Shown here in pieces: positions 3,406 through 55,428 of a DNA stretch of 64,000 bases; within the stretch, counting starts at the first letter, position 1; each line of letters opens with the position of its first letter. Source of the stretch: Dictyostelium discoideum (lineage: Eukaryota); contig CM000151.3 in assembly GCA_000004695.1 (NCBI GenBank), forward strand, positions 8,192,001 through 8,256,000, given 5' to 3'. The translations under genes were made by a program, and so were the position numbers. The notes below the pieces were generated by a model. The model searched no databases and was not told the origin of the DNA. It saw nothing but the letters and a program-made list of their open reading frames with translations.

Positions 3406-3599
3406 AAAAAAATAAAAAACAATTAAAAAAACAATTAAATAAAAAAAAAAAAAAAAAAAACAAAATATAACGTATATTTTGATTTGTTTCCCATTATATA
3501 ATAATACCAACAACAACCAACAATAATAATTAATAAAAATTTATATTATTGTTCACTAAAAGTTAAATTGTTTATTTTTTTTGCTTTTTAGTTTTTGTG

Positions 3600-3935: not shown

Positions 3936-4254
3936 TTTGAGGTGTGTAAAAATAAAAAAATAAAAAATAAATTAAAATAAAAAATAAATTAAAAAAATAA
4001 AAAATAAATTTATCAAAAGATACCGAAGTTAAAAAGAATCTTCTGTCAGTTTTTGGGGTGGTATCTATCCAGATTCCAATGGTGATTATCATTAACCACA
4101 ATTAATTATCGTTAAAAAAGTGATATTTTATTTTATTTTATTTTTTTCCACCCAATTAAATAACTTTTTTTTTGATCAAAGAAAAAATGATAATTTGGTT
4201 CATTTATTTTTTTATTTTTTTATTTTTTTATTTTTTCAAAAATTTTTGGGTGGC

Positions 4255-6850: not shown

Positions 6851-9800
6851 ATGAGTGATAAAACAGAAATATTATTTTGGAAAGTTTTTAAAAATCAATA
6901 TTTATTCAACAAGATATTTAATCAAATTCACAACAATGAATGGATTGAATATGATGAACCAAATAAATATAATGTTTACAATAGATGTAAATTTGGAGAC
7001 ACTCACTCTTTGGTAATAATGATAAAAAATGATCTACTCCCATTAATTAAAGATAAAATCAAACATGGTGATCATATAGAAATTAATACTTTTTCAATAA
7101 AAGATCTTTTCTCAAAATTATCAACAGACCCATTAATTGATAATAAAAATAAAAATAAAAATAAATATAAAGATGAAGATTATTTAGAAATTATTGAATT
7201 ATTAATGAAAAATAGAAGAGATGATTTTGAAATTACTGATTTAATATGTATAGCAGCAGCCACTCGTTCTCCAGATGTTATTAGATTATTAGTTAATGAA
7301 CCATATTCAGTTGTAATTTATCCAAAAATATTTGAATTTGCAATTATGTATTCAAATTTAGCAACAATCAAAGAACTAATAAATTTAGAATCAATAAATT
7401 TTAAAAACTATGGTATTAAATTAATCAGTGAAGAATTTAAAAGAAAATCATTATCATTAGCAGTACATAGAACAACTCTTAAAACTACAATCACTGAATA
7501 CATTTTTAATAACCCATCATTATATTCAATACCACCACCATTATCATTATTAAATAATCAACAAAAACAAGAGCAACAAACACAATCAACAAATAAAAAA
7601 TTAAAAACATTTGAAACTTTACATCCAAATTTAAAAAATAACAGCAATAATAATAATAATAATGATAATGAAGAAATAAAGTACGAATATATTAAATTTA
7701 AAGATTTTATAAAATTAAAATCAAGTAATTTATTAAAATCATTTATGAAATTAGATATAGTAGTTTTAAGTGAAACTAAAACAAATTTTAATTCATTTCT
7801 TAAAATGTATCATCCATATGAAAGATTACAAGTTGGTATTAAAATTATTCTAAAGTATGATAATACAATTTCAGATATAAAAAAAAGAGAAGAAATTTTA
7901 GAAGAAATCAATAAAATTGATAGAAGTAATGAAACAGGTTTTAATAAATTAAAAGAATTGAGAAAATTAGTAGCAATAGAATTCCCAAATCAAATAAACT
8001 TTTATTTCTTTTATTGGAAAGCATATCGTGAGAAAATTAAAAAACTTGGTAAAGTTCCTTATAAATCAGGTTCTCATATTAATACACAAACTTTTGGACA
8101 CCTTCTTTTACAAGATGAATTAACCAATTATCAAACCAATACTCAAAAAGGTGATAAAAATATAGAACAAGTAGAATTATTATCATATATTACATATTCA
8201 GATAGTGAAAGTGAAAATGAAGTCGAAGAAGACACAATAATTGAAAAGGAATTATCTAATTTCTCTAATAGATTTAGAAATGCAACAGTTTTTGATATAT
8301 CAAATAGGTATTCAAATTTACTCAATTCATATTTAAAAGCAATTAAAGAATGTAATATTGAAAAATTAGAAAGGATTGATACAAATAATCCAATGTTTAA
8401 ATTAGATGTTTCAAAATATCATTGTTTTCAATTACCAAATGAAAAAGAAGATATAATGAAAATTTGGGAATACTTTAATAAACACTCCTTTAAACAAATG
8501 ATACCAAATTATGATATTCTCATTGAATTCCTTTCAAGTGTAACAAATATTATTCCACCTTTTGAATTGAAAATTTCAAATATTAAAGAGCCACTATCTG
8601 GTAAACTTGGAACAATTCTATTATGGCAATTATATAAAAAGAATTTTAATATAACGGAATTATTATTAAATAGTTTTGATAATTTTAATTTTATATATCA
8701 ACCAGAACAAATGTCAGCCATGGTAGATAAAGAGAGAGTTTTATTTCTTCGTAATGGTGAATTATTCCAAATTGATAAAAAGTTTAGTTTTCAAATAATC
8801 AGAATAATTAAATTGGTAATGGACAAGTTTAATAAACTCACTAAAGATCAAATCAATATTGAAAATATTTCAACAACAACATATCGTCTCATTTTAAATA
8901 ATTTATACGATCAATTACTTAGAGTTAAAGGTTTAACAATCGATCAATTAGAATATGTTAGATCAATTATTCCTGAACAATTATTTAATAATAATAGTTT
9001 TGAAACCTATCGTATCTTTTTCTATCTTAATATCAGATCTTCAAAATTAACAAATTACATAACCAAGAGACCTGGAATTACAAGTTTTATTGATAATTCA
9101 ATTGCATTCTCTAATCATTTCTACAATAGTACTGAACCAGTTACAAATGAAATTATTGGTTTTGATTTAAGAAAATATTTAAATTTTGAATTATTCACAT
9201 ATGATTATATATTAGGTAGAGAATCAAATCGATATAGTAGTGGTTTTAGTGGTGGTGGTAGTAGTAGTGGTTATGATGATGGTAGCAAAAATAATAATAA
9301 AAAGTACATAACTCAAGTAGATACAATATTAAAAGAATTAATTAAACAATTATCATTCAATATTTGTACAAACGTTAATAATAGAGATAATATTGTTAAG
9401 GGTGATGATTTCTTTAAACATTCATTAAATGCAGATTTAAGATTCAGTTTAGATATTGGTAGAAAAGATTTATTTTGGGAATTATTAGATTGGATTCAAC
9501 AATATATGATTAAAAATGAAAACTTAATGAAACTTCAAGTTTATCAATTTAATTCACCATATGAATCATTATTACCAACTGGTACAATATTTTCAAATGT
9601 AAAAATAATAAAAAAAGAATTACCATCACCACCAAAAGCAGCAACAGAAACAATAACAACAATTGAAAGTACTTTTTTAAAAATTGATAATTTTGAAAAA
9701 CCAATACCAAATGAATCATCAGTTAAAATCGATTGGAATTCAGATAAATTAATTGAAGCATTCAAACCAGTTTCAAAACTAATAAATTCATTTAAATATT

Positions 9801-11745: not shown

Positions 11746-12054
11746 ACACTGTTTTTATTAATTTCCATGCATATCTTCAATTTTTTTTTTAAATTTTACA
11801 TTTTTATTATTATTATTTTTACAAAAACAACAAGAACAAAAAACCCACAACAAAACATTTAGATTTTTTCGTCCCATATTTTTTGGCTTCTGTTTGTTGG
11901 TTTTTTTTTAGTTTTTTCATTTTTTTTAAATTTTATTGATGCATCTTTTATTTTTTTTTTTTTTTTACGCCAAAAAATAAAAAAAAATTCATGGGTGTTT
12001 ACAAACACTTTTTTACCTTTTTTAATTTTACATTTCTATATCCTTTTTTTTACT

Positions 12055-12822
12055 ATGTGTGATAAAACAGAAATATTATTTTGGAAGGTTTTTAAAAATC
12101 AATATTTATTCAGAGAGATATTTAATCAAATTCACAACAATCAATGGATTGAATATGATAAACCAAATAAATATAATGTTTACAATAGATGTAAATTTGG
12201 AGACACTCACTCTTTAAAAATAATGATAGAAAATGATCTACTCCCATTAATTAAAGATAAAATCAAACATGGTGATCATATAGAAATTACTTATCATTCA
12301 ATAAAAGATCTTTTCACAAAATTATCAACAGAAACATTTTATAAAAATTATAATGAAAATAATAAATATAAAGATGAAGATTATTTAGAAATTATTGAAT
12401 TACTAATGAAACATAGAAGAGATGAATTTGAAATTTATGATTTAATAAATTTAGCAGCAGTCACTGGTTCTCCAGATGTTATTAGATTATTAGTTAATGA
12501 ACCATATTCAGTTGTAATTTATCCACAAACATTTGAATTTGCATTTGTGGTTTCAAGTTTAGAAACAATCAAAGAACTAGTAAATTTAGAATCAACAAAT
12601 TTTAAAAATTATGGTATTAAATTAACTAGTGAACAATTTAAAAGAAGAATATTATCATTTGTAACTCAAAGATTATATCTTAAAACTTCAATCACTGAAT
12701 TCGTTTTTAATAATCCATCATTATATTCAATACCACCACCATTATCATTAGTAAATAATCAAAAACAAGGACAACAAACACAATCAACAAATAAAAGATT
12801 AAAAACTTTAGATTCAAATTTA

Positions 12823-12903
<81 letters not shown>

Positions 12904-14557
12904 GATAATGATAATGATAATGATAATGATAATGATAATGATAGTGATAGTGATAATGATGATGAAGAAATAAAGTATGGATATATTAAATTAAATGAAT
13001 TTATAAAATTAAAATCAAGCAATTTATTAAAATCATTTATGGAATTAGATATAGTAGTTCCAAGTGAAACTAAACCAAATTTTAATTCATTTCTTACAAT
13101 GTACCATACATATGAAAGATTACAAGTTGGTATTAAAATTATTCTAAAGTATGGAGATACAATTCCAGAAAAAAAAAGAGAAGAAATTTTAGAAGAAATC
13201 AATAAAATTGATAGAAATAATGAAACAGGTTTTAATAAATTAAAAGAATTGAGAAAATTAGTAGCAATAGAATTCCCAAATCAAAAAAACTTTTATTTCT
13301 ATTATTGGAAAGCGTATCGTGAGAATATCAAAAAACTTGGTAAAGTTCCTAATAAATCAGGTTCTCCAAATAATAATATGGAAACTTTCGGATTCCTTCT
13401 TTTAGAAGACGAATTAATTAATAATGAAACCAATACTCAAGAAGGTGACGAAAATATAGAACAAGTAGAATTATTATCATATATTACATATTCAAATAGT
13501 GATGATGAAAATGATCTTGGAGGAGAAGACATAATAAATGAAAAGGAATTATTTAATCCATTTAATAGATGTAAAAATGCAACATTTTTTGATATATCCA
13601 ATAAATATCCAGATTTACTCAATTCATATTTAAAAGCAATTAAAGAATGTAATATTGAAAAGTTAGAAAGGATTGATACAAATAATCCAATGTTTAAATT
13701 AGATGTTTCAAAATATCATTGTTTTCAACTACCACATGAAAAAGAAGATATAATGAAAATTTGGGAATACTTTAATAAACACTCCTTTAAACAAATGATA
13801 CCAAATTATGATATTCTCATTGAATTCCTTTCAAGTGTAACTAATATTATTCCACCTTTTGAATTGAAAATATCTAATATTAAAGAGCCACTATCTGGAA
13901 AACTTGGAACAATTCTGTTAATGCAATTATATAAAAAGAATTTTAATATAACGGAATTATTATTAAATAGTTTTGATAATTTTAATTTTATACATCAACC
14001 AGAACAAATGTCTGATATTATAGATCGAGAGAGATTTTTATTTCATATTTCTGGCGAATTATTCCAAATTGATAAAAAGTTTAGTTTTCAAATAATTAGA
14101 ATAATTGAATTGATAATGGACAAGTTTAATAAACTCACTAAAGATCAGATCAATATTGAAAATATTTCAACAACAACATATCGTCTCATTTTAAATCATT
14201 TATATGATCAATTACTTAAAGTTGAAGGTTTAACAATTGATCAATTAGAATATGTTAGATCAATTATTCCTGAACAATTATTTAATAATAATAGTTTTGA
14301 AACCTATCGTATCTTTTTCTATCTTAATATCAGATCTTCAAAATTATCAAATTACCTAATCAAAAGACCTGGAATTGAGTATTTTATTCAAAATTCAACT
14401 GGATTCTTAAATCATTTCTACAATACTATTGCACCAACCACAAATGAAATTATTGGTTTCGATTTAAGAAAATATTTAAATTTTGATTTATTCACTTATG
14501 ATTATATATTAGGTAGAGAATCAAATCAATATAGTAGTGGTAGTAGTAGTATCAGTA

Positions 14558-16283: not shown

Positions 16284-16432
16284 AATATGTTCCAACACCA
16301 TTTTTTTTTTTAATTTTACATTTTTATTATTATTTTTTTTTTTTAAAAAGTGTGACAAAACATAACTATTATTTTGGAAAGTTTTTAAAAATAAATATTT
16401 ATTCAAAGAGATATTTAATCAAATTCACAACA

Positions 16433-16652
16433 TTTGTTGTTGGGATTTTTTTTTGAATTTTCGCTTTCTAAACGGCAGTGATTTTTTACACTAAAATACA
16501 CTGTTTATACATAGGGTAAAAATTCACTAAATTTTTTTTTTTTTATAATTAAATTAAAAAACATTTTATTTAATCAGAACAATAAAAAACCATTTTTATT
16601 CAGTTATTTGCTTGTTATTTATTTTTTTATAACAAAAAAATTTAGTTTGCGC

Positions 16653-16701
<49 letters not shown>

Positions 16702-16830
16702 TTATTTTTTTCAATTTTTTTTTTATCGAAACAATTTTATTTTATTCCCCAAAAATGAAAATATCAAAAATAAATGAAATAAAAAATTATTTAATATTAC
16801 CTTATTTTTGTGTCTTCGTTACATAAAAAA
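16433..16830. repeat. Left inverted-repeat arm of the inserted element.
   Basis: Reverse-complement match to 18040-18626. This includes identical translated artefact ORFs on opposite strands (MLVIYFFITKKFSLR... at 16608+ and 18449-). Confidence 0.65.
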
Positions 16831-18039
16831 AAAAAAAAAAAAAGAAAAATGCAAAATAAAAAAAAAAATAAAAAAATTTATATTAAAATAAAAAAAAAGG
16901 AAAATAAAAAAAAAAAAAAAAAATAAAAAAAAAAAAAAAAAAATAAAAAAAAAAAAAAAAATTGGCTCAAATCTAACAATTTAAATTGTTATTTAATTCT
17001 TAAACAACAAATAATTGTTTAAAATTAGTTTTTTTATTATTTTGATTAAATAAATTGTTTTTAATTTATAAAAAAAAAAATAGATGGTAAATAGTAGATG
17101 GTAAATAATAGATGGTAAATAAAAAAGTTAATTTTTCAAAATTTTACCATCCAAAAACACCCCCAATTTACCATCAGCTAATACAACTCACACGTTGTTC
17201 ATTTGCTGTTCATTTCATATCAATTTAAAAAACAATAAATAATTTAATTCCCGCTATTTTTTGCGGATTTGCGGAAATGATTTTTTTTAATTTATAAAAA
17301 AATTTGATTTTTTTTATTTAAGACAGATCTTATCAGATTTATAAAATGAGAAAATATAATAGATATCTACTATTTTTGGCATTAAACAAAGATTTCTGAA
17401 TATTCAGAAATAGACAGCGAAACTATCTAATATTGTAAGTGTAACCACGGAGATCGCCACGTGGATTTGCGGCACTTCCTGCTGCTGGTCCCCAGCCATA
17501 TTGGCCGTTTATTGGACGTTGTGAGAGATTTTGGCCTGGTTGTACGATTCCGCCTGATGTCATTTGCTGGGAATAAGAATATATGAGATTTAATTAATAA
17601 ATATACATGATATGATTGATAAAAATAGAACAAATTTTAAATTTTTAAAATTGTACACATACATTAAAGTATAATAATATAATTTGTTAAAAATAATTTG
17701 AAATGTTTTTTTTGAAAAAATTTTTTTGTTAATGTTTTATCAACATTTTTTAAATTAAAAAATAAAAAAAATAAAATTAAAAAATAAAAAAAATAAAAAA
17801 TAAATTTAATTAAATTCCAACATTTTTTAGGGGGGTACCCTCTTTTTTTTATTTAAATATTAATTTTCATTTTTATTATTATTATTATTATTATTAAAAT
17901 TATTATTTTTTTTAGGGGGGGGTACCCTCTTTTTTTTTTATTTTTTTTTTATTTTTTTTATTTTTTTTTTTTATTTTTTATTTTTCTTTTTTTTTTTATT
18001 TTTCTTTTTTTTTTTTTTTTTTTTTTTTCATTTTTTTTT

Positions 18040-18230
18040 TTATGTAACGAAGACACAAAAATAAGTTAATATTAAATAAGTGAACTAAGACACTAATTAT
18101 AGTTGACCCACATTTAAATAATAATAATAATAATAATAATTCTATTAACTCGAGTTTATAATTATAAATAATATAAATACTAAAAATAATTATATAAACA
18201 ATAATGAATACCATAATTAAAATATAAACC

Positions 18231-18270
<40 letters not shown>

Positions 18271-18360
18271 ATTTTTTTCAATTTTTTTTTATCGAACAAT
18301 TTTATTTTATTCCCAAAAATGAAAACAATCGATAAAAAAAAAAATTGAAAAAAATAATTG

Positions 18361-18406
<46 letters not shown>

Positions 18407-18626
18407 GCAAACTAAATTTTTTTGTTATAAAAAAATAAATAACAAGCAAATAACTGAATAAAATTGGTTTTTTATTTTTCTGATTAAATAAATTGTTTTT
18501 TAATTTAATTATAAAAAAAAAAAAAATTTAGTGAATTTTTACACCATGCATAAACAGTGTATTTTAGTGTAAAAATTCACTGCCGTTTAGAAAGCGAAAT
18601 TTCAAAAAAAATTGCCTACAACAACA
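18040..18626. repeat. Right inverted-repeat arm of the inserted element. It is longer than the left arm because of an extra (AAT)n segment and internal segments.
   Basis: Reverse-complement match to 16433-16830. One internal ~50 bp block (caattttttttttatcgaaacaattttattttattccccaaaaatgaaaa) is in direct rather than inverted orientation in the two arms, and is locally flanked by its own small palindrome in the right arm. Confidence 0.6.
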
Positions 18627-31687: not shown

Positions 31688-31735
<48 letters not shown>

Positions 31736-31794: not shown

Positions 31795-32160
31795 TTTTTC
31801 CAAGTTAGACGAAAACCGCCAAACGAGCCGAATGATTCTCATATTTTTATCGAGTAAAATTAATAGATAGAAAGTATGTTACTATTGATAAAAGTTGTTA
31901 AATGACATTTTCTACCCATTTCAAATGAATTATATGTTTTCCACTAAGTTATAAGAAAACCGCCAAACGAGCAAAATGATTCTCACACATTTTTATGAAG
32001 TAAAATTATTCGATAGATGATATGTTACTATTGATAAATATCATATAATTATGTTATCTAACTATTTTCCTTAGCAAGTATCGAACTTAGAGACCAATGT
32101 GTTACAAATTTTCCTTAGCAAGTATCGAACTTAGAGACTAATGTGTTACAAAACAAATGG
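31795..32160. repeat. Tandem direct repeats upstream of pseudogene copy 8. There are two ~150-bp units (31805-31890 / 31955-32040, core aaaaccgccaaacgagc.aaatgattctca...agtaaaatta.t.gataga...atgttactattgataaa) and two 47-bp units (ttttccttagcaagtatcgaacttagagac.aatgtgttacaaa at 32069-32115 and 32116-32162).
   Basis: Direct visual alignment of the repeated strings. Composition is less AT-biased than a typical intergenic spacer. Confidence 0.6.
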
Positions 32161-32490
32161 AGGTTCTAGAAATATTATTTTGGAAAGTTTTTAAAAATAA
32201 ATATATATTAAAAGAGATATTCAATCAAATTCACAACAATGAATGGATTGAATATGATGAACCAATAAATATAATGTTTACAATAGATGTAAATTAGTGA
32301 AGAATTTAAAAGAAAATCATTATCATTAGCAGCACATAGAAAAACTCTTAAAACTACAATCACTGAATACATTTTTAATAATCCATCATTATATTCAATA
32401 CCACCATTATCATTAATAAATAATCAAAAACAACAAGAACTATCAACAAATAAAAGATTAAAACTATCTGAAACTATACATTCAAATTTA

Positions 32491-32549
<59 letters not shown>

Positions 32550-34674
32550 AGAAATAAAGTATGAATATATTGAATTTAGAGATTTTATGAAATTAAAGTC
32601 AAGCAATTTATTAAAATCATTTATGGAATTAGATATAGTTTTAAGTGAAACTGAAACAAATTTTAATCAATTTCTTAAAATGTATCATCCATATGAAAGA
32701 TTACAAGTTGGTATTAAAGTTATTCTAAAGTATGATAATACAATTCCAGAAAAAAAAAGAGAAGAAATTTTAGAAGAAATCAATAAAATTGATAGAAAAA
32801 ATGAAACAGGTTTTAATAGATTAAAAGAATTGAGAAAATTAGTAGCAATAGAATTCCCAAAGCAAACAAACTTTTATTTCTATTATTGGCAAAGATATCG
32901 TGAGAATATTAAAAAACTTGGTAAAGTTCCTAGAAAATGGAATCCTCCAGGTGATAATATTGAAACTTTTGAACATATTATTGTACAAGATGACTTCATT
33001 GAAGATCAAGAAGCCATATATCTAAACCATACCCAAGGTGATGAAAATATAGAACAAGTAGAATTACTATCATATAATTTATATAGATGATTCAAAATGA
33101 GACAATATTTTGTTAAAATATTTTCAATATTGATTTGATCTTTAGTGAGTTTTTTAAACTTGTCTATTATCAATTTAATTATCCTGATTATTTGAAAAAA
33201 ACAAGAATTTTAATATAATGGAATTATTATTAAATAGTGAGTTTTTTAAACTTGTCTATTATCAATTTAATTATCCTGATTATTTGAATTATCCTGATAC
33301 CATCATCAGGTAGCAATTATAATAATAAAAAGTACAAAACTCAATTCGATGCAATATTAAAAGAATTAATTAAACAATTATCACTTGATATTTGTACAAA
33401 CGTGAGTAATAGAGATAGAATTGTTAAGGGTAAAGATTTCTTTAATCATTCATTAAATGTAGATTTAAAATTCAGTTTAGATATTTGTAGAAAAGATTTA
33501 TTTTGGGAATTATTAGATTGGATTCAACAATATATGATTAAAAATGAAAATTTAATGAGCGTCAAGTTTATCTATTCAATTCACCATATGAATCATTATT
33601 ACCAAATGGTACAATATTTTCAAATGTAAATATAATAAAAAAAGAATTACAATCAAAAGAATTAACAACCGAAACAACAGAAGCAGCAATTGAAAGTTCT
33701 TTTTTAAAAATTGATAATTTTGAAAAACCAATACCAAATGAATCAACAATTAAAATTGGTTGGAATTCAGATAAATTAATTGAACCATTCAAACCAATTT
33801 CAAAACTTATAAATTCATTTAAATTTTCAGATGAAGTCATAGTATCAATTTGTAAAGTAATGAATGTAAATGAAATTCAAAGATTTATTCAATATAATTT
33901 CTTTGAATCATTTTTTCAAAATGAAATTTATAAATATTCAGTATTTATGAATAGAGATGATATAATGCCATTCCTATTAAATAATTATAATATTGAAGCT
34001 GATTTCCCATACTTTCATCCAAGCTCAGACTATTCACAATATTTAGAATGTAAATTCATCTTTGAAAATCATTTTGAAAAAGTAAAGAATATTTCAAATC
34101 TCAATCAAAAATGGATCGAAAGTCGTTATTTACAATTCCCATTGATTTTATTAAATTCTTTTTTAAAATACATCTGCAAAGAAAAGAATATCACAACATA
34201 TAATCAATTCATTCAAAATGATAATTTACAAATTAGAAAACAAGTAATTAAAAAAACAATTGAAATACTAATTGGTAGATTCAATCAATTATTGAACAAT
34301 CAGATACTCAAGTATACTTTAAATCAGCTTTGGATCAAGTTTTATTAAAATCAAAAGAAGATAGAAAAAATGATGAAATTAATTCTCCATTCATTGAAAA
34401 TAATAAAAATCCATTCATAGAATCTTTTATTCATGGTGATATTAAAACCTGTGATATCATTCTCAAATATTACCCAAATCAATTCAAAATCACTAAAGAT
34501 TCAATCACTGAAACATTAAAAATGGAAAATATTCATATCATTAAATATTATTATAAAGTTGATAATTGTAAAAATTTAATTAATAATTTTAAAAATGATA
34601 ATAATTTATTAAAACATTTAAAAAATGAATTATCAAAACATCCAATATATAAATACCATTTAACTTGGTTATAA
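32157..34674 (+). pseudogene. Family copy 8, pseudogene. The start MEVLEILFWKVF is intact, but about 170 codons are deleted after NRCKF (junction at about 32292). A further deletion of about 420 codons lies between ...LLSYNLYR (33090) and NNKKYKTQFD (33310). There are frameshifts (pieces 32587-33090, 33402-33629, 33860-34348, 34330-34674); it ends in HPIYKYHLTWL*.
   Basis: Collinear homology with gaps relative to the intact copies. Frame changes are visible in the ORF track. Confidence 0.8.
33090..33290 (-). repeat. Inverted (reverse-complement) fragment of the family gene, covering the region encoding ...QIIRIIKLIIDKFKKLTKDQINIENI..., lying at the deletion junction inside pseudogene copy 8. 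A partial 50-bp direct duplicate of it is at 33238-33287.
   Basis: tgagttttttaaacttgtctattatcaatttaattatcctgattatttga is the reverse complement of the paralog sequence tcaaataatcag(g/a)ataattaaattgataat(a/g)gacaagtttaa(a/t)aaactca. It occurs twice. Confidence 0.6.
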
Positions 34675-35292
34675 AAAAAAATAATAAAAACAAATAAAAA
34701 AAAAAAAAAAACTATCTTCTGTGATAAAATCAAACGCATAAACTAGTTTGTGCACATACCCAATTAATACACAACAAATTTAAAAAGTGTCTTGTCATGT
34801 GCAATTCCAAAAAATTTTATTTGTTGCACAATCAATATTAACAGATCGTTTATATGTATTAAACGCTGATAATAAATGTGCAACAAATATTCATTTGGGT
34901 TCAGCAAGAACAACCACAGAACTGGATTCGTCACATGTGATTTTACTTTGGAGAAGAATAATGTCATTGGAAAAAAAAAAATAATTAAAAAAAAAAATAA
35001 ATAAATAAAGTAAAATAAAAAAATAAATAAATAAATAAATAAAATAAAATAAAATAAAAAAGTTAATAAAATAAAAATAAAATAATTTTAAAATCTCTAA
35101 CCTTTACTCTTTACTTTGGGTTTTTGAAAGAATGGATATGGGTGTGAAGTTCGAATAGTTTTAATTCTTTATTTAATTAATCAATATCTTATTTATTTAA
35201 TTTTAATTATTTTTTTTATTTTAATTCTATTATTATTATTCTTTTTATTTGATCGAGTTTGATGATTCAATTAATTATCTTGATTCTTCACT

Positions 35293-35800
35293 TGATGAAT
35301 CTTCATCTTGTTGTTTTTCTTCCTCTTCTTCCTCTTCCTCTTCTTCACTATTATAATCACTATTTAATCCTTTTGTTAGACTAAGATCATTTACATTTGA
35401 GAAATTACCATTTAAATAACTTGACCCCCACCAGTCACTATAAATTTAAAGTTTTACAATCTATACCAATTGCAATATTATTACAAATACAATTACCAAG
35501 GTGATCATTACATTTACCAAATGGTGAATATTCGACTGAACAAGGAGCTCTATAACAAAATTCATCATATATTAATGTTGCACCATTCCATCTAATAATT
35601 TAATTTGTTGACTACCTTAACCTGCACCTATTGTACATATGATTTGAGATTTATTACTTGAGAAATTAATATCATTACAAATTGAAGTACCAATTCAAAT
35701 TGTAATACTTGTGCTAATATTATAAATATTTGAAAATCACAAGACATTATAACATCACCACCGGTTGTTGGTGTTAATACTGATGATATTTGCATTTAAT
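35293..35800 (-). CDS. Candidate non-family gene on the minus strand, fragmentary. The terminal exon is ...DWWGSSYLNGNFSNVNDLSLTKGLNSDYNSEEEEEEEEEKQQDEDSSSEESR* (stop at about 35293). The upstream cysteine-rich piece is IRWNGATLIYDEFCYRAPCSVEYSPFGKCNDHLGNCICNNIAIGIDCK, and a possible start is MQISSVLTPTTGGDV... at about 35797. Exon boundaries are not resolved.
   Basis: GC-richer island with long minus-strand open frames and a spaced-cysteine pattern typical of secreted or surface proteins. The frames are offset, consistent with short introns or degeneration. Confidence 0.25.
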
Positions 35801-36027
35801 TGTTGATGTTGTTATGTTGAGGTATATATAATAATGTTGTTAATGTTGTTGATGTTGTTGATGTTGTTGATGTATATTTATTTTATTTGGTGTGGTTGCA
35901 GTATGTTGATGTTGGTGTTGTTGTTGTTGATGAATTATGTTGTTGATGTTGTTCATGTTGATGTTATATATACATATTGTTTATTATTTTATTTTATTAT
36001 TGTTGATGTTGTATATATATTGGTTAT

Positions 36028-36097
36028 TATTTTATTTTATTTTATTTTATTTTATTTTATTTTATTTTATTTTATTTTATTTTATTTTATTTTATTA
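36028..36097. repeat. (TTTTA)n microsatellite, about 14 units. It is preceded at 35800-35960 by a (GTTGTTGAT)n-like minisatellite.
   Basis: tttattttattttattttatttt... read directly. Confidence 0.9.
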
Positions 36098-36650
36098 TAT
36101 ATATTATTATTATTTTATTTGTACTATATAAAATGAGTTGACATAATTTGCTAAAAGAGAATACTAATTTTATATTATTGAATATCCTATTATAACGATG
36201 AAGAATTGAGTAACTAATTTTGGAAGAACCATTAATTTTGTTACATTTTTTTATTTTATTTTTTGTTCATTTCTCCTCGCCAATTTGAAAATTTTAATAT
36301 TTTTTCTGTACATTAAATATATAAAAAATAATTTTGGTATATTCTGATAATTAATCAATTTACCACGAAAATTATTTACTAGTATTTTACAATTCTATTC
36401 ACAAATTGATTTAGTGTTTTTTTTGAAATACGGTGATTCCCACAACTCTAATAAATAAATTCCCTATCATTACTCTTTAATGAATTATTAAAGAATGGAA
36501 ACATATAATTCCTCAGAGAATATTAAAGTCTAAAAAAAAAAAAAAAATGAAAAAAAAAAAAAAATGAAAAAAAAAAAAAATTTTTTTGAATTTTTTTTTT
36601 TTTTTTGAATATTAATTTTTTTTTTTTTTTTGTGTTGTGTTGTAAAACAA

Positions 36651-37407
36651 ATGGAAATTCTAGAAATATTATTTTGGAAAGTTTTTAAAAATAAATATAT
36701 ATTCAAAGAGATATTTTATCAAATCCACAACAATGAATGGGTTGAATATGATAAACCAAATAAATATAATGTTTACAATAGATGTAAATTTAAAGATACC
36801 CACTCTTTACAAATAATGATAAAAAATGATCTACTCCCATTAATTAAAGATAAAATCAAACATGGTGATCATATAGAGATTACTCTTCATTCAATAAAAG
36901 ATCTTTTTTCAAAATTATCAACAGAACCATTAATAAAAAAAAATAGTAATAATAATAAATATAAAGATGAAGATTATTTAGAAATTATTGAATTATTAAT
37001 GAAACATAGAAGAGATCAATTTGAAATTACTGATTTAATTATGATTGCGGTAAAAGTTTATTCTCCAGATATTATTAGATTATTAGTTAATGAACCATAT
37101 TCAGTTATAATTTATCCAACAACATTTGAATTTGCAATTACAGATTCAAATTTAGAAACAATTAAAGAACTAGTAAATTTAGAACCAATAAATTTTAAAA
37201 ACTATGGTATTAAATTAATCAGTGAAGAATTTAAAAGAAAATCATTATCATTAGCAGCACATAGAAAAACTCTTAAAACTTCAATCACCGAATACATTTT
37301 TAATAATCCATCATTATATTCAATACCACCACCATTATCATCATTAAATAATCAACAAAAACAACGACTATCAAATAAAAGATTAAAACTATTTTTATTA
37401 ATATATA

Positions 37408-42080: not shown

Positions 42081-42545
42081 ATGACAGAAAAGACAGAAAT
42101 ATTATTTTGGAAAGTTTTTAAAAATGATTTTATATTTAAAGAGATATTTAATCAAATTCACAACAATCAATGGATTGAATATGATAACCCAAATAAATAT
42201 AGTGTTTACAATAGATGTAAATTTAAATATATCCACTCATTGAAAGTAATGATAGAAAATGAACTACTCCCATTAATTAAAGATAAAATCAAACATGGTG
42301 ATCACATAGAAATAGATCGTGATTCAATAGAAATTCTTTTCAAAATTATCAAAAACAAATAATAATAAAAATAAATATAAAGATGAAGATTATTTAGAAA
42401 TTATTGAATTATTAATTAAACATAGAAGAGATGAATTTGAAATTACTGATTTAATAAATATAGCAACAAATAAAAATTCACCAGATGTTATTAGATTATT
42501 AGTTAATGAACCATATTCAGTTATAATTTATCCAACAGCATTTTA
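42081..42545 (+). pseudogene. N-terminal relic of a family copy, subfamily MTEKTEIL. There are 93 codons in frame (42081-42362), then a frameshift; homology continues to ...LVNEPYSVIIYPTAF and then stops. The remaining ~1100 codons are absent.
   Basis: Near-identity to the first ~160 codons of copy 11 at 43037, split over two frames and then lost. Confidence 0.8.
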
Positions 42546-43036
42546 TTTTATCATTAAATCCAAAAAAAAAGAAATCAATTTTAAAATAAATTGTTTTTTT
42601 TTTTTTTATTAAACACTCAATTAAAAACTATCCAAATGTTATAAATAAAAATTTTTACGTTATAATCTAATTCTTCAATAACACCTCTAAACTTTTCGCT
42701 TCTATATTGCGCAATTTTTCGAGTAAAACAAGGGAATTATTATGAAAAGTTGATGTAATTTTCAGTAAAAAAAATAATACGTCATCACTTTTTTTTTTTT
42801 AATTTTTTTTTTTTTTTTTTTTTTTTAACTTTTTCTTTTTTATAAATTCTTTTTTTTTATTTTACAAATCAGTTTTTATAATTATTATACATTTGTACAT
42901 GTTTTTTTTTACAAATTTATAACTTTTAACATACATTTATATTATCTTTTTTTTTTTTTTTTTTTTTTTTTCATAACCATCATTATAATTATAATCAGCG
43001 TTTGTTGGTAGCAAAATTAAAAAAAAAACAAAAAAG

Positions 43037-46000
43037 ATGACAGAAAAGACAGAAATATTATTTTGGAAAGTTTTTAAAAATAAATTTATATTCAACGAGA
43101 TATTTAATAAAGTTCACAACAATCAATGGATTGAATATGATGAACCAAATAAATATAATGTTTACAATAGATGTAAATTTAAATATACCCACTCTTTACA
43201 AATAATGATAAAAAATGATCTACTCCCATTAATTAAAGATAAAATCAAACATGGTGATCATATAGAAATAGATCGTAATTCAATAAAATATCTTTTTTCA
43301 AAATTATCAAAAACACCACCAGTACAACTATATAGTCAAATTGAAATAACTATTTTTAGTATAAATATTAATAATAATAATAATAATAAAAATAAATATA
43401 AAGATGAAGATTATTTAGAAATAATTGAATTATTAATGAAACATAGAAGAGATGAATTTGAAATTACTGATTTAATAAAGATGGCAGTAATTACAAATTC
43501 ACCAGATGTTATTAGATTATTAGTTAATGAACCATATTCAGTTATAATTCATCCAACAATATTTGAATTTGCAATTATAAAATCAAATTTAGCAACAATT
43601 AAAGAACTAATAAATTTAGAATCAATAAATTTTAAAAATTATGGTATTAAATTAATCAATGAAGAATTTAAAAGAAAATCATTATCATTGGCAGCACATA
43701 GAGAAACTCTTAAAACTACAATCACTGAATACATTTTTAATAATCCATCATTATATTCAATACCACCACCATTATCATTAATAAATAATCAAAAAGATGA
43801 TGAAGAAGGAATAAAATATGAATATATTGAATTTGAAGAATTTATAGGGTTAAAATCAAGCAGCTTATTAAAATCATTAATGGAATTTGATATAGTAAAA
43901 GGAAAGTTTAAAAAAAATACAGTGAATTCATTTCTCAAAATGTATCATCCATATGAAAGATTAAAAGTTAATATTCAAATTATACTAAAGTATGGTACTC
44001 CATCATTAGATACAAAAGAAATAAAAGAGATTTTAGATAAAATAGATAATATTGATGAGAAAGATTCAAATCATTTATATAAATTACAAGAATTGGCAGC
44101 ATTACAATTCCCAAACCAAAAAAACTTTTGTTTTTATTATTCAAAGAAGTATGGTAGAAATGATGAAAGTAAAGAACAAGTTAATGTTGGTATTCAAGAG
44201 CAATTAGATACATATTCAGATTGGGAAATTGAAAATGAGGTTGAAGAAGAAGAAGAAGAAAACGTTAATAAACAACGAGAGTATTTCAATAATTTTAATA
44301 AATTTAGAAAAGCAACAGTTTATAATTTATCCGAAAGATATTCATCTGTAACTTCTATTTATTTAAATACAATGAAAGAAGGAGATATTGATACAATGAA
44401 AAAGCTTGATAAAATCAAAATTTATGATGGTGCCTCGGGTCCAGTATTTAGATTAGATGTTTCAAGATTTCATTATTTCCAATTACCAAAAGAAAAAGAA
44501 GTTTTAATGAAAGTTTGGGATTATTTAAATGAACACTCTTTTAAACAGATTGGTAATAATTATGAAATTCTCATGGAATTCTTCTCAAGTGTAACAGATA
44601 TAATATCACCATTAGATTTGAAAATTAGTAATCTTGAAGATTTCATGATGGCGAGATTAAGTTTAATGTTATTTAATTCATTGACTAAAAATAATTTAAA
44701 TGTATTTCAATTATTATTAAATAGTTTTGATAAATTTAATTTTTTAAATGGAGTGGTAGTGGAAATGAACAAACTTTTGAATAAAGAAAAGATTTTATTT
44801 GGTAGTGATGGTAAAATCATACAACTTGATAATAAATATATCAATCAATTAATCAAATCAATTGAAATGGCCGTGGAAAAGTATAATAAATTCATTTCTG
44901 AACCAATAGAGAATGGAGTAGAGTCATTTAGCATCATTTTAAATCATTTATACGATCAATTAATTAGAATTAAAGGTATATCAGTCGATCAATTAGATTA
45001 TATTAGATCAATTATTCCTCAACAATTATTAGCATTCAAATGGGATGTCTATCGTATCTTTTTCTATCTCAATATCAGATCTCGAAAATTAACAAAATAC
45101 ATACTCTCTAGGCCTAGAGTTAGTCTGTTTACTGAAGGCAATCGAAATCATTCTCCTCTCTACAATGTCTATACAAGCGAAGGATCTTATACACTTGATT
45201 TAAGAAAATATTTAAAATTAGATTTATTCACATATGATTATATTTTAGGTAGAGAGAATACAAGTAGTAGTGGTAGTGGTGGTGCTTATGAAAATAATAA
45301 TAATAATAATAACAAGAAGTTTATAAATCAATTCGATACAATATTAAAAGAATTGATTAAACAATTATCACTTGATATTTGTACAGATGTTAGTAATATA
45401 GATGAAATTCTTGATGGTGAAGATTTCTTTATGGTTTCATTTAATAAAGATTTAAAATATAGTTTGGATATTGGTAGAAAAGATTTATTTTGGGAATTAT
45501 TAGATTGGATTCAACAATATATGATTAAAAATGAAAATTTAATGAGGTATCAAGTTTATCAATTCAATTCACCATATGAATCATTATTACCAACTAGTAC
45601 AATATTTTCAAAAGTAAAAATAATAGAATTACCACCACCAACAACAACAACAACAGCCACAGTAAAAGCAAAAGAAACAACAACAACAATTGGAAGTAGA
45701 ATATTAAAAATTGATAATTTTGAAAACCCAATAACAAATGAATCATCAGTTAAAATTGGTTGGAATGAAAATAAATTAATTGAACCATTCAAACCAATGT
45801 CAAAACTTATAAATTCATTTAAATTCCAACGAGAAGTCATACGATCAATTTGTAGAGTAATGAATGTAAATGAAATTCAAAGATTTATACAACACAATTT
45901 CTTTGTATCAAATTTCCATATTTTAATTTATTCATGTGCAGTATATAATAATAGAGATGACATAATGTCATTCCTATTAAATAATTATAATATCAAATTT

Positions 46001-51617: not shown

Positions 51618-51814
51618 AATAGAAAAATAATAAAAAAAATAAAAATAAAAATAAAAATAAATAAAAATTAATAAATAACAATAAATTAAAATAAATAAAA
51701 AAATAAAAAAAGATATTAAATTTTTAATCTTTTTTTTTTTTTAAATAACCTTATCCAAAAACAAAAAAAATAATTTAATTAAATTAAAAAATAAAAAACT
51801 GACTGACATCCAAC

Positions 51815-52666
51815 TTGTAAATTAATTTACATCTATTGTAAACATTATATTTATTTGGAAACACTCACTCTTTACAAATAATGATAAAAAATGATCTACT
51901 CCCATTAATTAAAGATAAAATCAAACATAATGATCACATAGAAATTGATCATTTTTCCATTAAAGATCTTTTTTTAAAATTATCAAAAAAACAACCACCA
52001 CAAGAAGAAACTTTAATAGAAAATAATAATAATATTAATAATAATAATAAAAATAAATATAAAGATGAAGACTATTTAGAAATTATTGAATTATTAATGA
52101 AATATAGAAGAGATGAATTTGAAATTACTGATTTAATTGTGATGGCTAAATTATAATTGAATATGGTTCATTAACTAATAATTATTAGTTAATGAACCAT
52201 ATTCAATTATAATTTATCCAACAACATTTGAATTTGCAATTAAATGTTTAAATTTAGAAACAATTAAAGAACTAGTAAATTTAGAATCAATAAATTTTAA
52301 AAATTATGGTATTAAATTAATTAGTGAAGAATTTAAAAGAAAATCAGCACGTAGAAAAACTCCTAAAACTACAATCGCTGAATACATTTTTAGTAATCCA
52401 TCATTATATTCAATACCACCATTGTCATTAATAAATAATCAAAAACAACAAGAGCCGTCAACAAATAAAAAACTAAAATTATCTGAATCGAATTTAAATA
52501 AAAAGAACAATATTAATAACAGTGATAATAGTGATAATAGTGACGAAGGAAGTGAAAATGATGAGGAAGATTATGAAAATGAAAATGATATTGATAGTGA
52601 TAATTGTGATAATAATGAAGGATGTGAAAATGATGAAGAAGATGAAGAAAACGAAGATATTGATAC

Positions 52667-53764: not shown

Positions 53765-54908
53765 GTACATAACTCAATTCGATACAATATTAAAAGAATT
53801 AATTAAACAATTATCACATGATATTTGTACAAACCTTAGTAATAGAGATGAGATTGTTGATGGTAAAGATAGAGATTTCTTTAAGCATTCATTAAATGCA
53901 GATTTAAAATTCAGTTTAGATATTGGTAGAAAAGATTTATTTTGGGAATTATTAGATTGGATTGAACAATATATGAATAAAAATGAAATTTTAATGAAGC
54001 ATCAAGTTTATCAATTCAATTCACCATATGAATCATTATTACCAACTGGCATAATATTTTCAAATTTAAAAATAATAGAATTACCACCACCAAAAACAAC
54101 AGTAACAACAGTAACGACATCAACAATTGAAAGTAGAATTTTAAAAATTGATAATTTTGAAAAACCAATACCAAATGAATCATCAGTTAAAATTAATTGG
54201 AATTCAGATAAATTAATTGAACCATTTAAACCAATTTCAAAACCTATAAATTCATTTAACTTCCAACAAGATGTCATACAGTCAATTTGTAGAGTAATGA
54301 ATGTAAATGAAATTCAAAGATTTATACAACACAATTTCTTTGTATCAAATTTCCACATTTTAATTTATTCAAGTGCATTATATAATAATAGAGATGATAT
54401 AATGTCATTCCTATTAAATAATTATAATATCAAACTCAATGGATTTCCAACTTTCTCCAAGGCAGACAATCAACATTCACAATATTTAGAATGTAAATCC
54501 ATCTTTGAAAATCATTTTGAAAAAGTAAAGAATATTTCAAAATTAAAATTAGAATGGTGTGAAAGTAGAGATTTACAATTCCCATTGGTTTTATTAAATG
54601 CTTTTGTTGTATACCTTTGTAACGATCGTAATTTCTCAACCTATAGTGAATTCATTCAAAATGATAATTTAGAAATTAGAAATAAAGCAATTAAAGAAAT
54701 AATTAAAATATTAAAGTATCACTATGAAGATGATGAGGAAGAATATAATTTAGATGAGAATTTTGCATCTATAATAAAAAATCAAAATCATAAAGTTTCA
54801 ATCATTCAACCAATTATTGAACAACCAGATACTCAATTATACTTTAAATCAGTTTTAGATCATGTTACATTAAAAATAAAAAAGGAAAGAAAAATCTGTG
54901 GCGCTTAA
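51815..54908 (+). pseudogene. Family copy 13, pseudogene. It is 5'-truncated and begins inside a 37-bp micro-inversion. There is a frameshift at about 52160-52420, then an 828-codon open piece with a (CAA)n poly-Q tract of about 45 codons. The C-terminus is truncated: it ends ...KIKKERKICGA* and lacks the HPIYKYHLTWL tail.
   Basis: Collinear homology to copy 12. Relics of the tail (atcatttaactttgttata) appear twice downstream at 54975 and 55125. Confidence 0.8.
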
Positions 54909-54909
54909 A

Positions 54910-55272
54910 AAAATAAAAAAAAAAAAATAAAAAAAAATAAAAAAAAAAATTAACGGAAAGATATTTTTTTATTATGAAAATCATTTAACTTTGTTATATA
55001 AAAATAAATCTTTTTTTTTTTTTAATGATTTGTTTAATTGTTTCTAATATTTACACAGTGGTCATATGGAAATAAAAAAATAAAAAAATAAAAAAATAAA
55101 TTATCAAAATAATCAATTTATGAAAATCATTTAACTTTGTTATAAATAATAAAAAATTATAAAAAAAAAAAATAAAAATAAAAATAAAAAAATAACCTAC
55201 ACTTATTATTAGAAATGATCAATTTTTTTGAAGTCCAAAAAAAGTTTTAAAAACACTGTGTTTTTATCGAAA

Positions 55273-55306
<34 letters not shown>

Positions 55307-55330
55307 TTATTTTTTTTTTTCACTTTTTTT
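54910..55330. repeat. Downstream flank of copy 13 that is duplicated, at about 90% identity, downstream of copy 14 (59690-60110). It includes a tail relic, taatgatttgtttaattgtttctaatatttaca(ca)gtggtcatatggaaat, and tttttttgaagtccaaaaa.agttttaaaaa.
   Basis: Direct string comparison of 54950-55260 with 59745-60030. Confidence 0.7.
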
Positions 55331-55428
55331 TTTTTTCACTTTTTTTTTTCACTTTTTTTTTTTTTTCATACTTTTTTTTTTTTCGTTCATTCAAAACGGT
55401 GGTTAAGAAAAAACAAAAAATAATAATT

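What the first reader, a model, noticed from the sequence alone, without database searches (positions are those of the whole stretch)
33090..33310. Inverted partial duplication of gene-internal sequence at a large deletion junction in pseudogene copy 8
Where about 420 codons are missing, the gap is filled by a ~110-bp reverse-complement copy of the part of the gene that was deleted (the region encoding QIIRIIKLIIDKFKKLTKDQINIENI), plus a second 50-bp direct copy of its end. This is the signature of fork-stalling/template-switching or hairpin-mediated repair, not simple unequal crossing-over. It is a nicely preserved example of the rearrangement mechanism operating in this array.
Basis: seen in the sequence. 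Interest (0 to 1): 0.5.

Follow-up and report, generated by a model that had tools for sequence, protein, structure and literature searches.

The report
Template-switch scar in a Dictyostelium pseudogene
A dead gene copy in a tandem array of the social amoeba Dictyostelium discoideum lost about 1.1-1.2 kb, and the gap was patched with five short pieces copied, mostly backwards, from the lost stretch; this is a real and well-preserved scar of DNA synthesis jumping between templates, but a scar of an already known kind.

Summary
In pseudogene copy 8 (32157-34674), 1083-1194 nt of the gene (361-398 codons, not 420) are replaced by a 224-nt filler at 33085-33308. Every base of the filler but one (the A at 33199) derives from the lost interval. 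The pieces are:
- I1, 118 nt, inverted
- I2, 54 nt, inverted and 100% identical to the end of I1
- I3, 12 nt, inverted
- I4, 10 nt, inverted, from the edge of the right flank

That makes six junctions, not three. Microhomology at them is 0-4 nt, and its excess over chance is only marginal.

The whole pseudogene is base-identical in a second D. discoideum assembly. In a third assembly the gene at the same array position is intact (1355 aa), with all templates direct and contiguous; it shares variants with I1 that no paralog in the window has.

Unequal crossing-over, and inversion plus deletion, cannot produce this order of pieces. Serial template switching of the FoSTeS/MMBIR type is the best explanation. 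Polymerase-theta-type end joining is the main rival. A simple hairpin does not fit.

Copy 12 carries two more small inverted-copy events. This is a good specimen of a known kind, of low to moderate interest.

The parts
32292..33084 (+). Left flank of pseudogene copy 8, collinear with the paralogs. It ends in ...AATTTATAT; a TGA stop follows at 33088-33090.
   Evidence: equals copy 3 at 7423-8197; equals L005:15621-16437 at 91.4%.
33081..33084 (.). Junction 1: ATAT, a 4-nt microhomology shared by the end of the left flank and the start of I1.
33081..33198 (-). I1: a 118-nt inverted copy of gene-internal sequence (codons FQIIRIIKLIIDKFKKLTKDQINIENILTKYCLILNHLY). Its template lies about 590-710 nt beyond the left break.
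   Evidence: minus-strand hits to eight paralogs, E down to 1e-42; 108/121 identical to L005:17163->17043, sharing 3 variants that are absent from all paralogs in the window.
33199..33199 (.). Junction 2: one A inside a run of seven A that neither template accounts for. Microhomology here is 0-3 nt, depending on the reference used.
33200..33238 (+). D: a 39-nt direct-orientation copy (codons ..KNFNIMELLLNS) from about 115-150 nt upstream of the I1 template.
   Evidence: plus-strand hits at 87-95%; 39/39 identical to L005:16891-16929.
33235..33288 (-). I2: a second inverted copy, 54 nt, 100% identical to 33143-33196 (the end of I1). Junction 3 is TAGT (33235-33238), a 4-nt microhomology with the end of D.
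   Evidence: 52/54 identical to L005:17098->17045.
33287..33298 (-). I3: AATTATCCTGAT, a third partial copy of the same inverted sequence (also at 33177 and 33269). Junction 4 shares AA.
33299..33308 (-). I4: ACCATCATCA, the reverse complement of the TGATGATGGT that directly precedes and overlaps the start of the right flank in paralogs.
   Evidence: exact match at copy 3 9283->9274 and in four other copies. L005:11100-11140 has ...GGTGATGATGGTAGCAATTAT, the same right-flank variant as copy 8.
33309..34282 (+). Right flank of copy 8 (GGTAGCAATTAT...). It resumes at the 3' edge of the (AGT/GGT)n Ser/Gly-coding microsatellite, which is itself deleted, and carries further frameshifts.
   Evidence: (microsatellite tract of 21-126 nt in the group-A paralogs, copies 1, 3-7 and 9).
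32157..34674 (+). Whole pseudogene copy 8. It also has a 1-nt deletion near 32268, a roughly 429-nt deletion at 32295/32296, and reading frames broken into at least five ORFs.

Best explanation
Copy 8 of a tandem array of uncharacterised genes of about 1300-1400 aa on D. discoideum chromosome 2 was damaged by a replication-based serial template-switching event of the FoSTeS/MMBIR class. This was either one event or two closely linked events.

Proposed course (inferred from the order of the pieces, in copy 3 coordinates):
1. A nascent strand copying the gene stopped at the position of window 33084.
2. Its 3' end re-primed on the opposite-strand template about 710 nt ahead, through ATAT, and copied 118 nt backwards (I1).
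3. It jumped back to the original template about 150 nt upstream of that and copied 39 nt forwards (D).
4. It jumped again to the opposite strand, through TAGT, and re-copied 54 nt (I2), then 12 nt (I3).
5. It copied 10 nt backwards at the far edge of a Ser/Gly-coding (AGT/GGT)n repeat (I4).
6. It resumed normal synthesis there.

The net effect is the loss of about 1.1-1.2 kb and the gain of a 224-nt mosaic filler.

What is shown and what is inferred:
- Shown: the identity, order and orientation of all the pieces; the ancestral collinear arrangement in an intact counterpart; the reality of the junctions in two assemblies.
- Inferred: that a polymerase did this during replication or break-induced replication; that it was a single event; and that the microsatellite or fork uncoupling was the trigger.

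The scar has no function. It lies in a gene copy that is dead several times over.
For: 1. All 224 nt of filler except one A are accounted for by five pieces from inside the lost interval, four of them inverted and one direct.
2. The order along the reference is L 8197 | 8907->8788 | 8636->8674 | 8843->8790 | 8809->8798 | 9283->9274 | 9281-> (copy 3 coordinates). This needs at least six switches. One segment is duplicated and part of it triplicated, which crossing-over or inversion plus deletion cannot give.
3. The intact 1355-aa gene L005:15055-19122 sits at the same array position in strain assembly GCA_054859385.1: the unique downstream spacer 35364-36234 matches only L005:19280-20175. In that gene all templates are direct and contiguous. 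D is 39/39 identical, I2 is 52/54, and I1 shares 3 of the 6 variants that no paralog in the window has.
4. The share of I1 bases found in no window paralog (6/118, 5.1%) equals that of copy 8's own flanks (5.1% and 2.3%). No extant paralog in the window is a better donor than 107/119. So the template was copy 8's own sequence, which is now deleted. That requires the template still to have been present when it was copied (a sister strand or fork), as replicative models assume.
5. I1 and I2 are identical (54/54), including shared variants, as expected if both came from one template in one episode.
6. Two junctions have 4-nt microhomology (ATAT, TAGT).
7. The right break lies at the edge of an (AGT/GGT)n tract.
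8. The same array holds two simpler inverted-copy events in copy 12 that fit the published four-point template-switch model (PMC5453318).
9. Multi-template inverted insertions with microhomology are the published MMBIR signature (PMC8421209).
Against: - Microhomology is weak. The junctions give 4, 0-3, 4, 2, 1 and 0 nt. The summed excess over random junctions in this AT-rich sequence has P about 0.06 to 0.01.
- The templates lie 440-710 nt from the left break. This is further than the 100 bp or less of the yeast-derived MMBIR insertion signature (PMC8421209).
- One event and two events cannot be told apart. A first switch-and-return (point order 1-4-3-2) would have made a 118-nt inverted repeat with a 152-nt spacer, and a second episode would then have collapsed it.
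- No experimental evidence for such events in Dictyostelium was found in the searchable literature.
- The I3 and I4 assignments rest on matches of only 12 and 10 nt.
Confidence: 0.65

Rival explanations
1. Double-strand-break repair by polymerase-theta-mediated end joining (TMEJ, also called synthesis-dependent MMEJ). A break inside copy 8 was resected. The 3' ends went through several abortive cycles of annealing at microhomology, short synthesis and dissociation, which built up a mosaic 'filler' of direct and inverted snippets before the final ligation.
For: - The filler consists of several short templated pieces in both orientations, with 0-4 nt of microhomology. This resembles TMEJ filler DNA (established knowledge).
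- D. discoideum encodes PolQ (DDB_G0277749) and DNA ligase III (PMC8529158).
Against: - All templates lie in the interval that ends up deleted, 440-710 nt from the left joined end. With a two-ended break in cis, the strand needed as template for each piece is either already trimmed or resected away (inference from strand polarity). A sister chromatid or a fork would be required as template.
- A 118-nt piece is long for typical TMEJ inserts.
- The microhomology excess is marginal.
Confidence: 0.18
2. Stepwise decay by unrelated ordinary events: an inversion, a tandem duplication by slippage or unequal exchange, and several NHEJ deletions, accumulated over time in a dead gene.
For: - Copy 8 has other independent lesions: a 429-nt deletion, a 1-nt deletion and frameshifts.
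- The 54-nt repeat has a 92-nt period and TAGT at both starts, so the second copy could be a slippage duplication.
Against: - At least five independent events would have to fall within 224 nt, while the 793-nt left flank and the 974-nt right flank stay collinear.
- A direct piece from upstream (D) placed after the inverted block cannot come from inversion plus deletion.
- I1 and I2 show no divergence, 54/54.
- The other large deletions in the family are clean, with no filler: copy 8 at 32295, copy 5 at 20161, and the P0012 copy of L005.
Confidence: 0.08
3. Ectopic gene conversion or recombination with a family member lying in inverted orientation elsewhere in the genome.
For: An inverted family member exists at the edge of the array in one other assembly (L007:1057-5050, minus strand).
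Against: - The pieces are short, alternate in orientation and are joined without flanking homology.
- They carry the variants of copy 8's own lineage.
- All 14 copies in the window are on the + strand.
Confidence: 0.03
4. Assembly or cloning artefact in AT-rich repetitive DNA.
For: Dictyostelium DNA is hard to clone and the array is repetitive (established knowledge).
Against: - Window 32100-34750 is base-identical in a second assembly that differs from the window in homopolymer lengths, so the two are separate sequence records.
- All junction k-mers are unique in the window and present in that second assembly.
Confidence: 0.02

Closest known systems
MMBIR / FoSTeS complex rearrangements with templated insertions (MMB-TI; Lee 2007 and Hastings 2009 as cited in PMC5453318; Osia et al. 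2021, PMC8421209)
   Same: - A deletion junction filled with several short copies of nearby sequence, mostly inverted relative to their templates.
- Iterative switches.
- Short microhomology at some junctions.
- Templates confined to about 1.2 kb around the breaks.
   Different: - The templates are 440-710 nt away rather than within 100 bp, as in the yeast-derived signature.
- The microhomology excess is only marginal.
- The event sits in a protist pseudogene, with no copy-number gain of flanking DNA.
- The templates themselves were lost, so no inverted repeat remains in cis.
Short-range template-switch mutations, four-point model (Ripley 1982; Loytynoja & Goldman 2017, PMC5453318)
   Same: - A reverse-complement copy of a nearby fragment replaces the sequence between the switch points.
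- The two copy 12 events fit it directly. One is a perfect 35+35-nt palindrome at 52147-52216 that replaces 30 nt. The other is a 35-nt inverted copy at 51824-51858 with a 6-nt microhomology (ATTTGG) at the return junction.
- The first two switches in copy 8 correspond to that paper's common '1-4-3-2' point order.
   Different: - The model covers a single switch-and-return over tens of bases. The authors explicitly do not model long-range switching or multiple successive rounds.
- Copy 8 needs at least six switches over about 1.1 kb.
Polymerase-theta-mediated end joining (TMEJ/alt-NHEJ) filler DNA
   Same: - Mosaic templated filler in both orientations at a deletion junction.
- The enzyme is encoded in D. 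discoideum (PMC8529158).
   Different: - TMEJ templates are normally in the retained flanks, close to the junction. Here they all lie in the deleted interval.
- The 118-nt piece is unusually long.
Fold-back inverted duplications / hairpin-capped breaks (e.g. PMC3907307)
   Same: - Inverted copy of local sequence at a break.
- The copy 12 palindrome (52147-52216) and the 8+8-nt palindrome at 51816-51831 have this geometry.
   Different: In copy 8 the inverted piece is not adjacent to its template. It starts about 710 nt beyond the break, and orientation alternates, so a simple snap-back hairpin does not produce it.
Unequal crossing-over (NAHR) in tandem arrays
   Same: It operates in such arrays and very likely built this one: 14 head-to-tail copies.
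   Different: It yields clean hybrid or deleted copies in direct orientation without filler. It cannot produce inverted or triplicated snippets.

Membership tests
MMBIR/FoSTeS templated insertion (MMB-TI) | The inserted sequence at the junction is a copy of nearby genomic sequence | tested here: met
   223 of the 224 filler nt map to the lost interval of the same gene. The templates are contiguous and direct in the intact counterpart L005:16891-17163.
MMBIR/FoSTeS templated insertion (MMB-TI) | The insertion is inverted relative to its template | tested here: met
   Four of the five pieces (118, 54, 12 and 10 nt) are reverse complements; one piece (39 nt) is direct.
MMBIR/FoSTeS templated insertion (MMB-TI) | The template is close to the insertion: within 100 bp in the yeast-derived signature, further in human complex events (PMC8421209) | tested here: not met
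   By the strict 100-bp criterion the templates are too far: 440-710 nt from the left break and 375-640 nt from the right, apart from I4, which abuts the right break. All lie within the roughly 1.2-kb lost interval, so only the looser 'human-type' description is met.
MMBIR/FoSTeS templated insertion (MMB-TI) | Microhomology at the switch junctions | tested here: inconclusive
   The six junctions have 4, 0-3, 4, 2, 1 and 0 nt. A single junction with 4 nt or more has P about 0.04 by chance. The summed excess has P = 0.056 to 0.012 in simulation on copy 7 sequence.
MMBIR/FoSTeS templated insertion (MMB-TI) | Arises during replication or break-induced replication (Pol32/Pol delta-dependent, Rad51-independent) | not testable with these tools
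   This needs genetics or a fork-barrier assay in Dictyostelium.
Four-point short template-switch mutation | A single switch-and-return that replaces the 1->4 fragment by the reverse complement of a nearby 2->3 fragment | tested here: not met
   Copy 8 needs four inverted fragments and one direct fragment, six switches in all. The two copy 12 events (51824-51858 and 52147-52181) do meet the feature.
Polymerase-theta end joining (TMEJ) | Filler templated from the retained flanks near the joined ends | tested here: not met
   No filler piece maps to the retained flanks, except for a 3-nt overlap of I4 with the start of the right flank. All templates lie in the deleted interval.
Polymerase-theta end joining (TMEJ) | Dependence on PolQ | not testable with these tools
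   The gene exists in D. discoideum (DDB_G0277749; PMC8529158).
Unequal crossing-over / NAHR product | A junction within extended direct homology, a clean hybrid, no filler | tested here: not met
   224 nt of non-collinear filler lie between the flanks. There is no plus-strand homology across 33085-33308.
Simple fold-back (hairpin) inverted duplication | The inverted copy abuts its own template with no spacer or a short one | tested here: not met
   I1 starts at reference position 8907 while the left flank ends at 8197, and no template remains in cis. The feature is met only by the copy 12 palindrome at 52147-52216.

The most novel reading that the evidence does not exclude
Serial or short-range template switching may be an unusually frequent route of decay and diversification in this AT-rich, microsatellite-laden Dictyostelium array. 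Three inverted-copy events lie in about 5.6 kb of two dead copies. For comparison, 'thousands' of such events separate human and chimpanzee across whole genomes (PMC5453318). A further possibility is that a transcribed pseudogene carrying 118 + 54 nt antisense to its 13 paralogs feeds the Dictyostelium RNAi machinery against the family. Neither idea is excluded and neither was tested. The count of three is small and biased by how the region was picked.
Probability: 0.1. Interest if true: 0.45.

Novelty: new member of a known kind. Interest (0 to 1): 0.25.

Why it matters
- Natural multi-switch scars are rarely this complete. All five template pieces can be read, the template variants are preserved, and an intact counterpart in another strain gives the 'before' state.
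- The case shows that FoSTeS/MMBIR-like events shape gene arrays in an amoebozoan that has both NHEJ and PolQ and is genetically tractable. The competing mechanisms could therefore be tested directly on this sequence.
- Practically, the scar splits the pseudogene into two spurious gene models in a recent annotation. The second model starts at an ATG inside the filler.
- It changes nothing about what is known of rearrangement mechanisms in general.

Tried and rejected
- Exact-product look-ups of copy 8 ORFs (32587-33090 and 33860-34348) and of the AX4 gene model P0008 found no record. Neighbouring intact genes were used instead.
- A homology search with the 167-aa ORF of copy 8 returned nothing. 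The tool's word index missed the family.
- A Pfam scan of copy 7 gave no domain above threshold; the only hits were faint Ank_3 and CDC45. The family remains uncharacterised.
- No tRNA genes and no Rfam hits were found in the window.
- The generic inverted-repeat scan was swamped by poly-A/T. A custom k-mer scan with a complexity filter replaced it.
- The 2.2-kb inverted repeat at 16434-18624 was considered as another fold-back event. It was rejected: it is a transposon-like insertion with terminal inverted repeats and a target-site duplication.
- Error-prone synthesis during the event was considered and rejected. The share of I1 bases found in no window paralog equals that of the flanks, and half of those bases are present in the intact counterpart.
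- Donation by an extant paralog in the window was rejected; the best candidate is 107/119.
- Other truncation junctions were checked for inverted filler (3406-4270, 42540-43040, 54880-55400, 51618-51830). None was found.
- Literature searches for the gene identifiers, and for Dictyostelium together with template switching, found nothing specific.
Full report
CONTEXT

The window has 21% G+C and carries poly-Asn, poly-Asp and poly-Ser coding tracts. It holds 14 head-to-tail copies, all on the + strand, of a gene of about 1300-1400 aa.

Exact protein matches place it on Dictyostelium discoideum chromosome 2:
- copy 3 is DDB_G0277643;
- copy 9 is DDB_G0277585;
- copy 10 is DDB_G0277653.
All three are annotated 'hypothetical protein'. 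Pfam finds no domain above threshold.

Copy 8 (32157-34674) is a pseudogene broken into at least five ORFs.

THE OBSERVATION

BLAST of 33000-33400 against the window shows that 33081-33198 matches the homologous part of eight paralogs only on the minus strand (81-91% over 118-121 nt, E down to 1e-42). It also shows that 33235-33288 is an exact second copy of 33143-33196.

Across all 14 copies, 33085-33308 is the only internal stretch that no plus-strand paralog alignment covers.

FULL ANATOMY (copy 3 coordinates in brackets)

| Piece | Window position | Reference position | Orientation | Length |
|---|---|---|---|---|
| Left flank | to 33084 | to 8197 | direct | - |
| I1 | 33081-33198 | 8907->8788 | inverted | 118 nt |
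| one A | 33199 | none | - | 1 nt |
| D | 33200-33238 | 8636-8674 | direct | 39 nt |
| I2 | 33235-33288 | 8843->8790 | inverted | 54 nt |
| I3 | 33287-33298 | 8809->8798 | inverted | 12 nt |
| I4 | 33299-33308 | 9283->9274 | inverted | 10 nt |
| Right flank | from 33309 | from 9281 | direct | - |

- The final 20 nt parse into two exact templated pieces. Only 3 of 2000 composition-matched shuffles and 49 of 3000 real 20-mers of matched G+C content from elsewhere in the window did as well.
- The position of I4 is specific. It is the reverse complement of the 10 nt that abut and overlap the start of the right flank. A relative in another strain carries exactly ...GGTGATGATGGTAGCAATTAT, which is copy 8's own right-flank variant.
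- The lost interval is 1083-1164 nt (361-388 codons) against paralogs in the window and 1194 nt (398 codons) against the intact counterpart.

IS IT REAL?

The neighbouring intact genes were found in assembly GCA_054883475.1 (contig JBTAPE010000033.1). Over 16 kb that assembly differs from the window by one substitution and ten homopolymer bases, so it is a separate sequence record. Window 32100-34750 is identical in it, base for base. All junction k-mers are unique in the window and present in that assembly. An assembly or cloning artefact is very unlikely.

THE ANCESTRAL STATE

A family search revealed further D. discoideum assemblies.

GCA_054859385.1 (locus L005) has this order: a copy 6-like gene, a copy 7-like gene, a partial copy, a DDE transposase gene, then an intact 1355-aa gene, called g4 here (L005:15055-19122).

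- g4 is the positional counterpart of copy 8. The spacer downstream of copy 8 (34700-36600) is unique in the window, and its only match anywhere is L005:19280-20175, immediately downstream of g4.
- The left flank of copy 8 is 91-93% identical to g4, which is better than to any paralog in the window (76-87%).
- In g4 everything is direct and contiguous: left break at 16437, D template at 16891-16929 (39/39 identical), I template at 17043-17163 (I2 52/54, I1 108/121), right break at 17632.
- Three of the six I1 bases found in no paralog of the window (ATAGAC, TTTTGAAT, CATCTAT) are present in g4 on the + strand.
- The share of I1 bases found in no window paralog (5.1%) equals that of copy 8's flanks (5.1% and 2.3%).

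So the filler was copied from copy 8's own, now deleted, sequence. It did not come from another paralog, and there is no sign of hypermutagenic synthesis.

The fetched parts of two more assemblies (L006, L007) also have the region direct and lack the junctions.

Caveat: g4 differs from copy 8 by about 9% in coding sequence and about 17% in the spacer. It is a positional counterpart in a divergent array, not a near-identical allele.

MECHANISM

The order of pieces excludes unequal crossing-over, which gives no filler and no inversion. It also excludes inversion plus deletions, for two reasons. A direct piece from upstream cannot follow the inverted block. And 8790-8843 is present twice, with 8798-8809 present three times.

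The simplest account is a nascent 3' end that switched templates six times within about 1.2 kb, alternating between strands. This is the FoSTeS/MMBIR class (PMC5453318 introduction; PMC8421209).

The templates were later lost from the product. They must therefore still have existed while being copied, which points to a fork or a sister-strand context.

A two-step variant is equally possible. First, a '1-4-3-2' switch-and-return would create a 118-nt inverted repeat with a 152-nt spacer. Then that unstable structure would collapse by further switching. The 54/54 identity of I1 and I2 fits either version.

Two weaknesses remain:
- Microhomology is modest (ATAT, 0-3 A, TAGT, AA, T, none). Simulated random junctions in this AT-rich sequence give P = 0.056 to 0.012 for the sum.
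- The templates are further away than in the strict yeast-derived signature.

The right break sits at the 3' edge of an (AGT/GGT)n tract that measures 21-126 nt in the group-A paralogs (copies 1, 3-7 and 9). This is a plausible fork obstacle, but that link is inference only.

RIVALS

- Polymerase-theta end joining can also build mosaic fillers, and D. discoideum encodes PolQ and ligase III. However, the templates lie in the deleted interval and not in the retained flanks. In a two-ended break the strands needed as templates would be trimmed or resected away.
- A simple hairpin fails because I1 begins about 710 nt from the break.
- Stepwise unrelated events would need at least five hits within 224 nt, while about 1.8 kb of flanks stay collinear. 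The other large deletions in the family are clean.

DOES THE MECHANISM RECUR IN THE ARRAY?

A minus-strand self-comparison and a complexity-filtered inverted k-mer scan found two more events, both in truncated copy 12:
- 51824-51858 is the reverse complement of 35 nt (codons PNKYNVYNRCKF). It is preceded by 8 nt of the direct copy, which makes an 8+8-nt palindrome at 51816-51831, and it returns to the gene through the 6-nt microhomology ATTTGG.
- 52147-52181 and 52182-52216 form a perfect 35+35-nt palindrome without a spacer, in which 30 nt of the gene were replaced by the reverse complement of the next 35 nt.

Both fit the four-point template-switch model (PMC5453318), and both are identical in the second assembly. 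Other truncation junctions carry no inverted filler.

COMPARISON AND NOVELTY

The scar works like an MMBIR/FoSTeS templated-insertion event. It meets the structural features (nearby templates, inversion, iteration). It fails the strict proximity criterion, and it is inconclusive on microhomology. It is not a single four-point event, not a typical TMEJ filler, not a fold-back and not an NAHR product.

I found no report of such events in Dictyostelium in the searchable literature. The kind itself is well known in bacteria, yeast, humans and cancer genomes.

Verdict: a real, well-resolved new example of a known kind, in a dead gene and without function. Interest is about 0.25.

Noticed in passing
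window 51816-51858 and 52147-52216 (5' end of truncated copy 12): Two further inverted-copy events. One is a 35-nt reverse-complement copy with an 8+8-nt palindrome and a 6-nt microhomology (ATTTGG) at the return junction. The other is a perfect, spacer-less 35+35-nt palindrome that replaces 30 nt of coding sequence. Both are identical in assembly GCA_054883475.1.
   Followed up: yes
window 16433-18620 (inside copy 5): Copy 5 is interrupted by an insertion of about 2.19 kb. The insertion has terminal inverted repeats of about 298 nt (94.6% identical), further inner inverted homology, no long ORF, and an apparent ACAACA target-site duplication (16427-16432 and 18621-18626). It looks like a non-autonomous DNA transposon. 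The element family was not identified.
   Followed up: partly
window 32295/32296 and about 32268 (copy 8); 20161 (copy 5); L005:11012: The other large deletions in the family are clean, with no filler and 0-6 nt of overlap. They are a deletion of about 429 nt and a 1-nt deletion in copy 8, a deletion of about 80 nt in copy 5, and a 1290-nt deletion in the partial copy of strain GCA_054859385.1. The left break of copy 8's 429-nt deletion (reference position 6993) coincides with the end of the 35-nt segment that is inverted in copy 12.
   Followed up: partly
window 42095-42549: An isolated N-terminal fragment of a family member (similar to copy 9 at 36662-37133, 86%) lies upstream of copy 10. 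It is followed by about 450 nt with no homology to the family.
   Followed up: no
L005, L006, L007 compared with the window: The family differs strongly between assemblies labelled D. discoideum. The best-matching copies are only 80-87% identical in protein sequence and about 88-93% in DNA. Copy number and content also differ: an extra partial copy plus a DDE_1 transposase gene in L005, and one family member on the opposite strand at the array edge in L007 (1057-5050). Either the array evolves very fast or these strains are deeply diverged.
   Followed up: partly
window 32158-33091 and 33219-34675 (= L001:10953-11886 and 12014-13470): The annotation of GCA_054883475.1 splits pseudogene copy 8 into two gene models, of 303 aa and 422 aa. 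The second starts at the ATG inside filler piece D (33218, MELLLNS...). These are almost certainly spurious proteins.
   Followed up: partly
window 22576, 31638, 31693-31700, 36567: These are the only differences between the window and GCA_054883475.1 over 16 kb: one A/T substitution next to a homopolymer, and three poly-A length differences of 1, 8 and 1 nt. This pattern is typical of differences between sequencing platforms.
   Followed up: yes
window 34700-36600: The spacer downstream of copy 8 is unique in the window, unlike the other inter-copy spacers. It contains a small minus-strand gene model (110 aa; about 35276-35796 in the other assembly's annotation) and a stretch of higher G+C near 34780-34990. 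The content was not identified.
   Followed up: no
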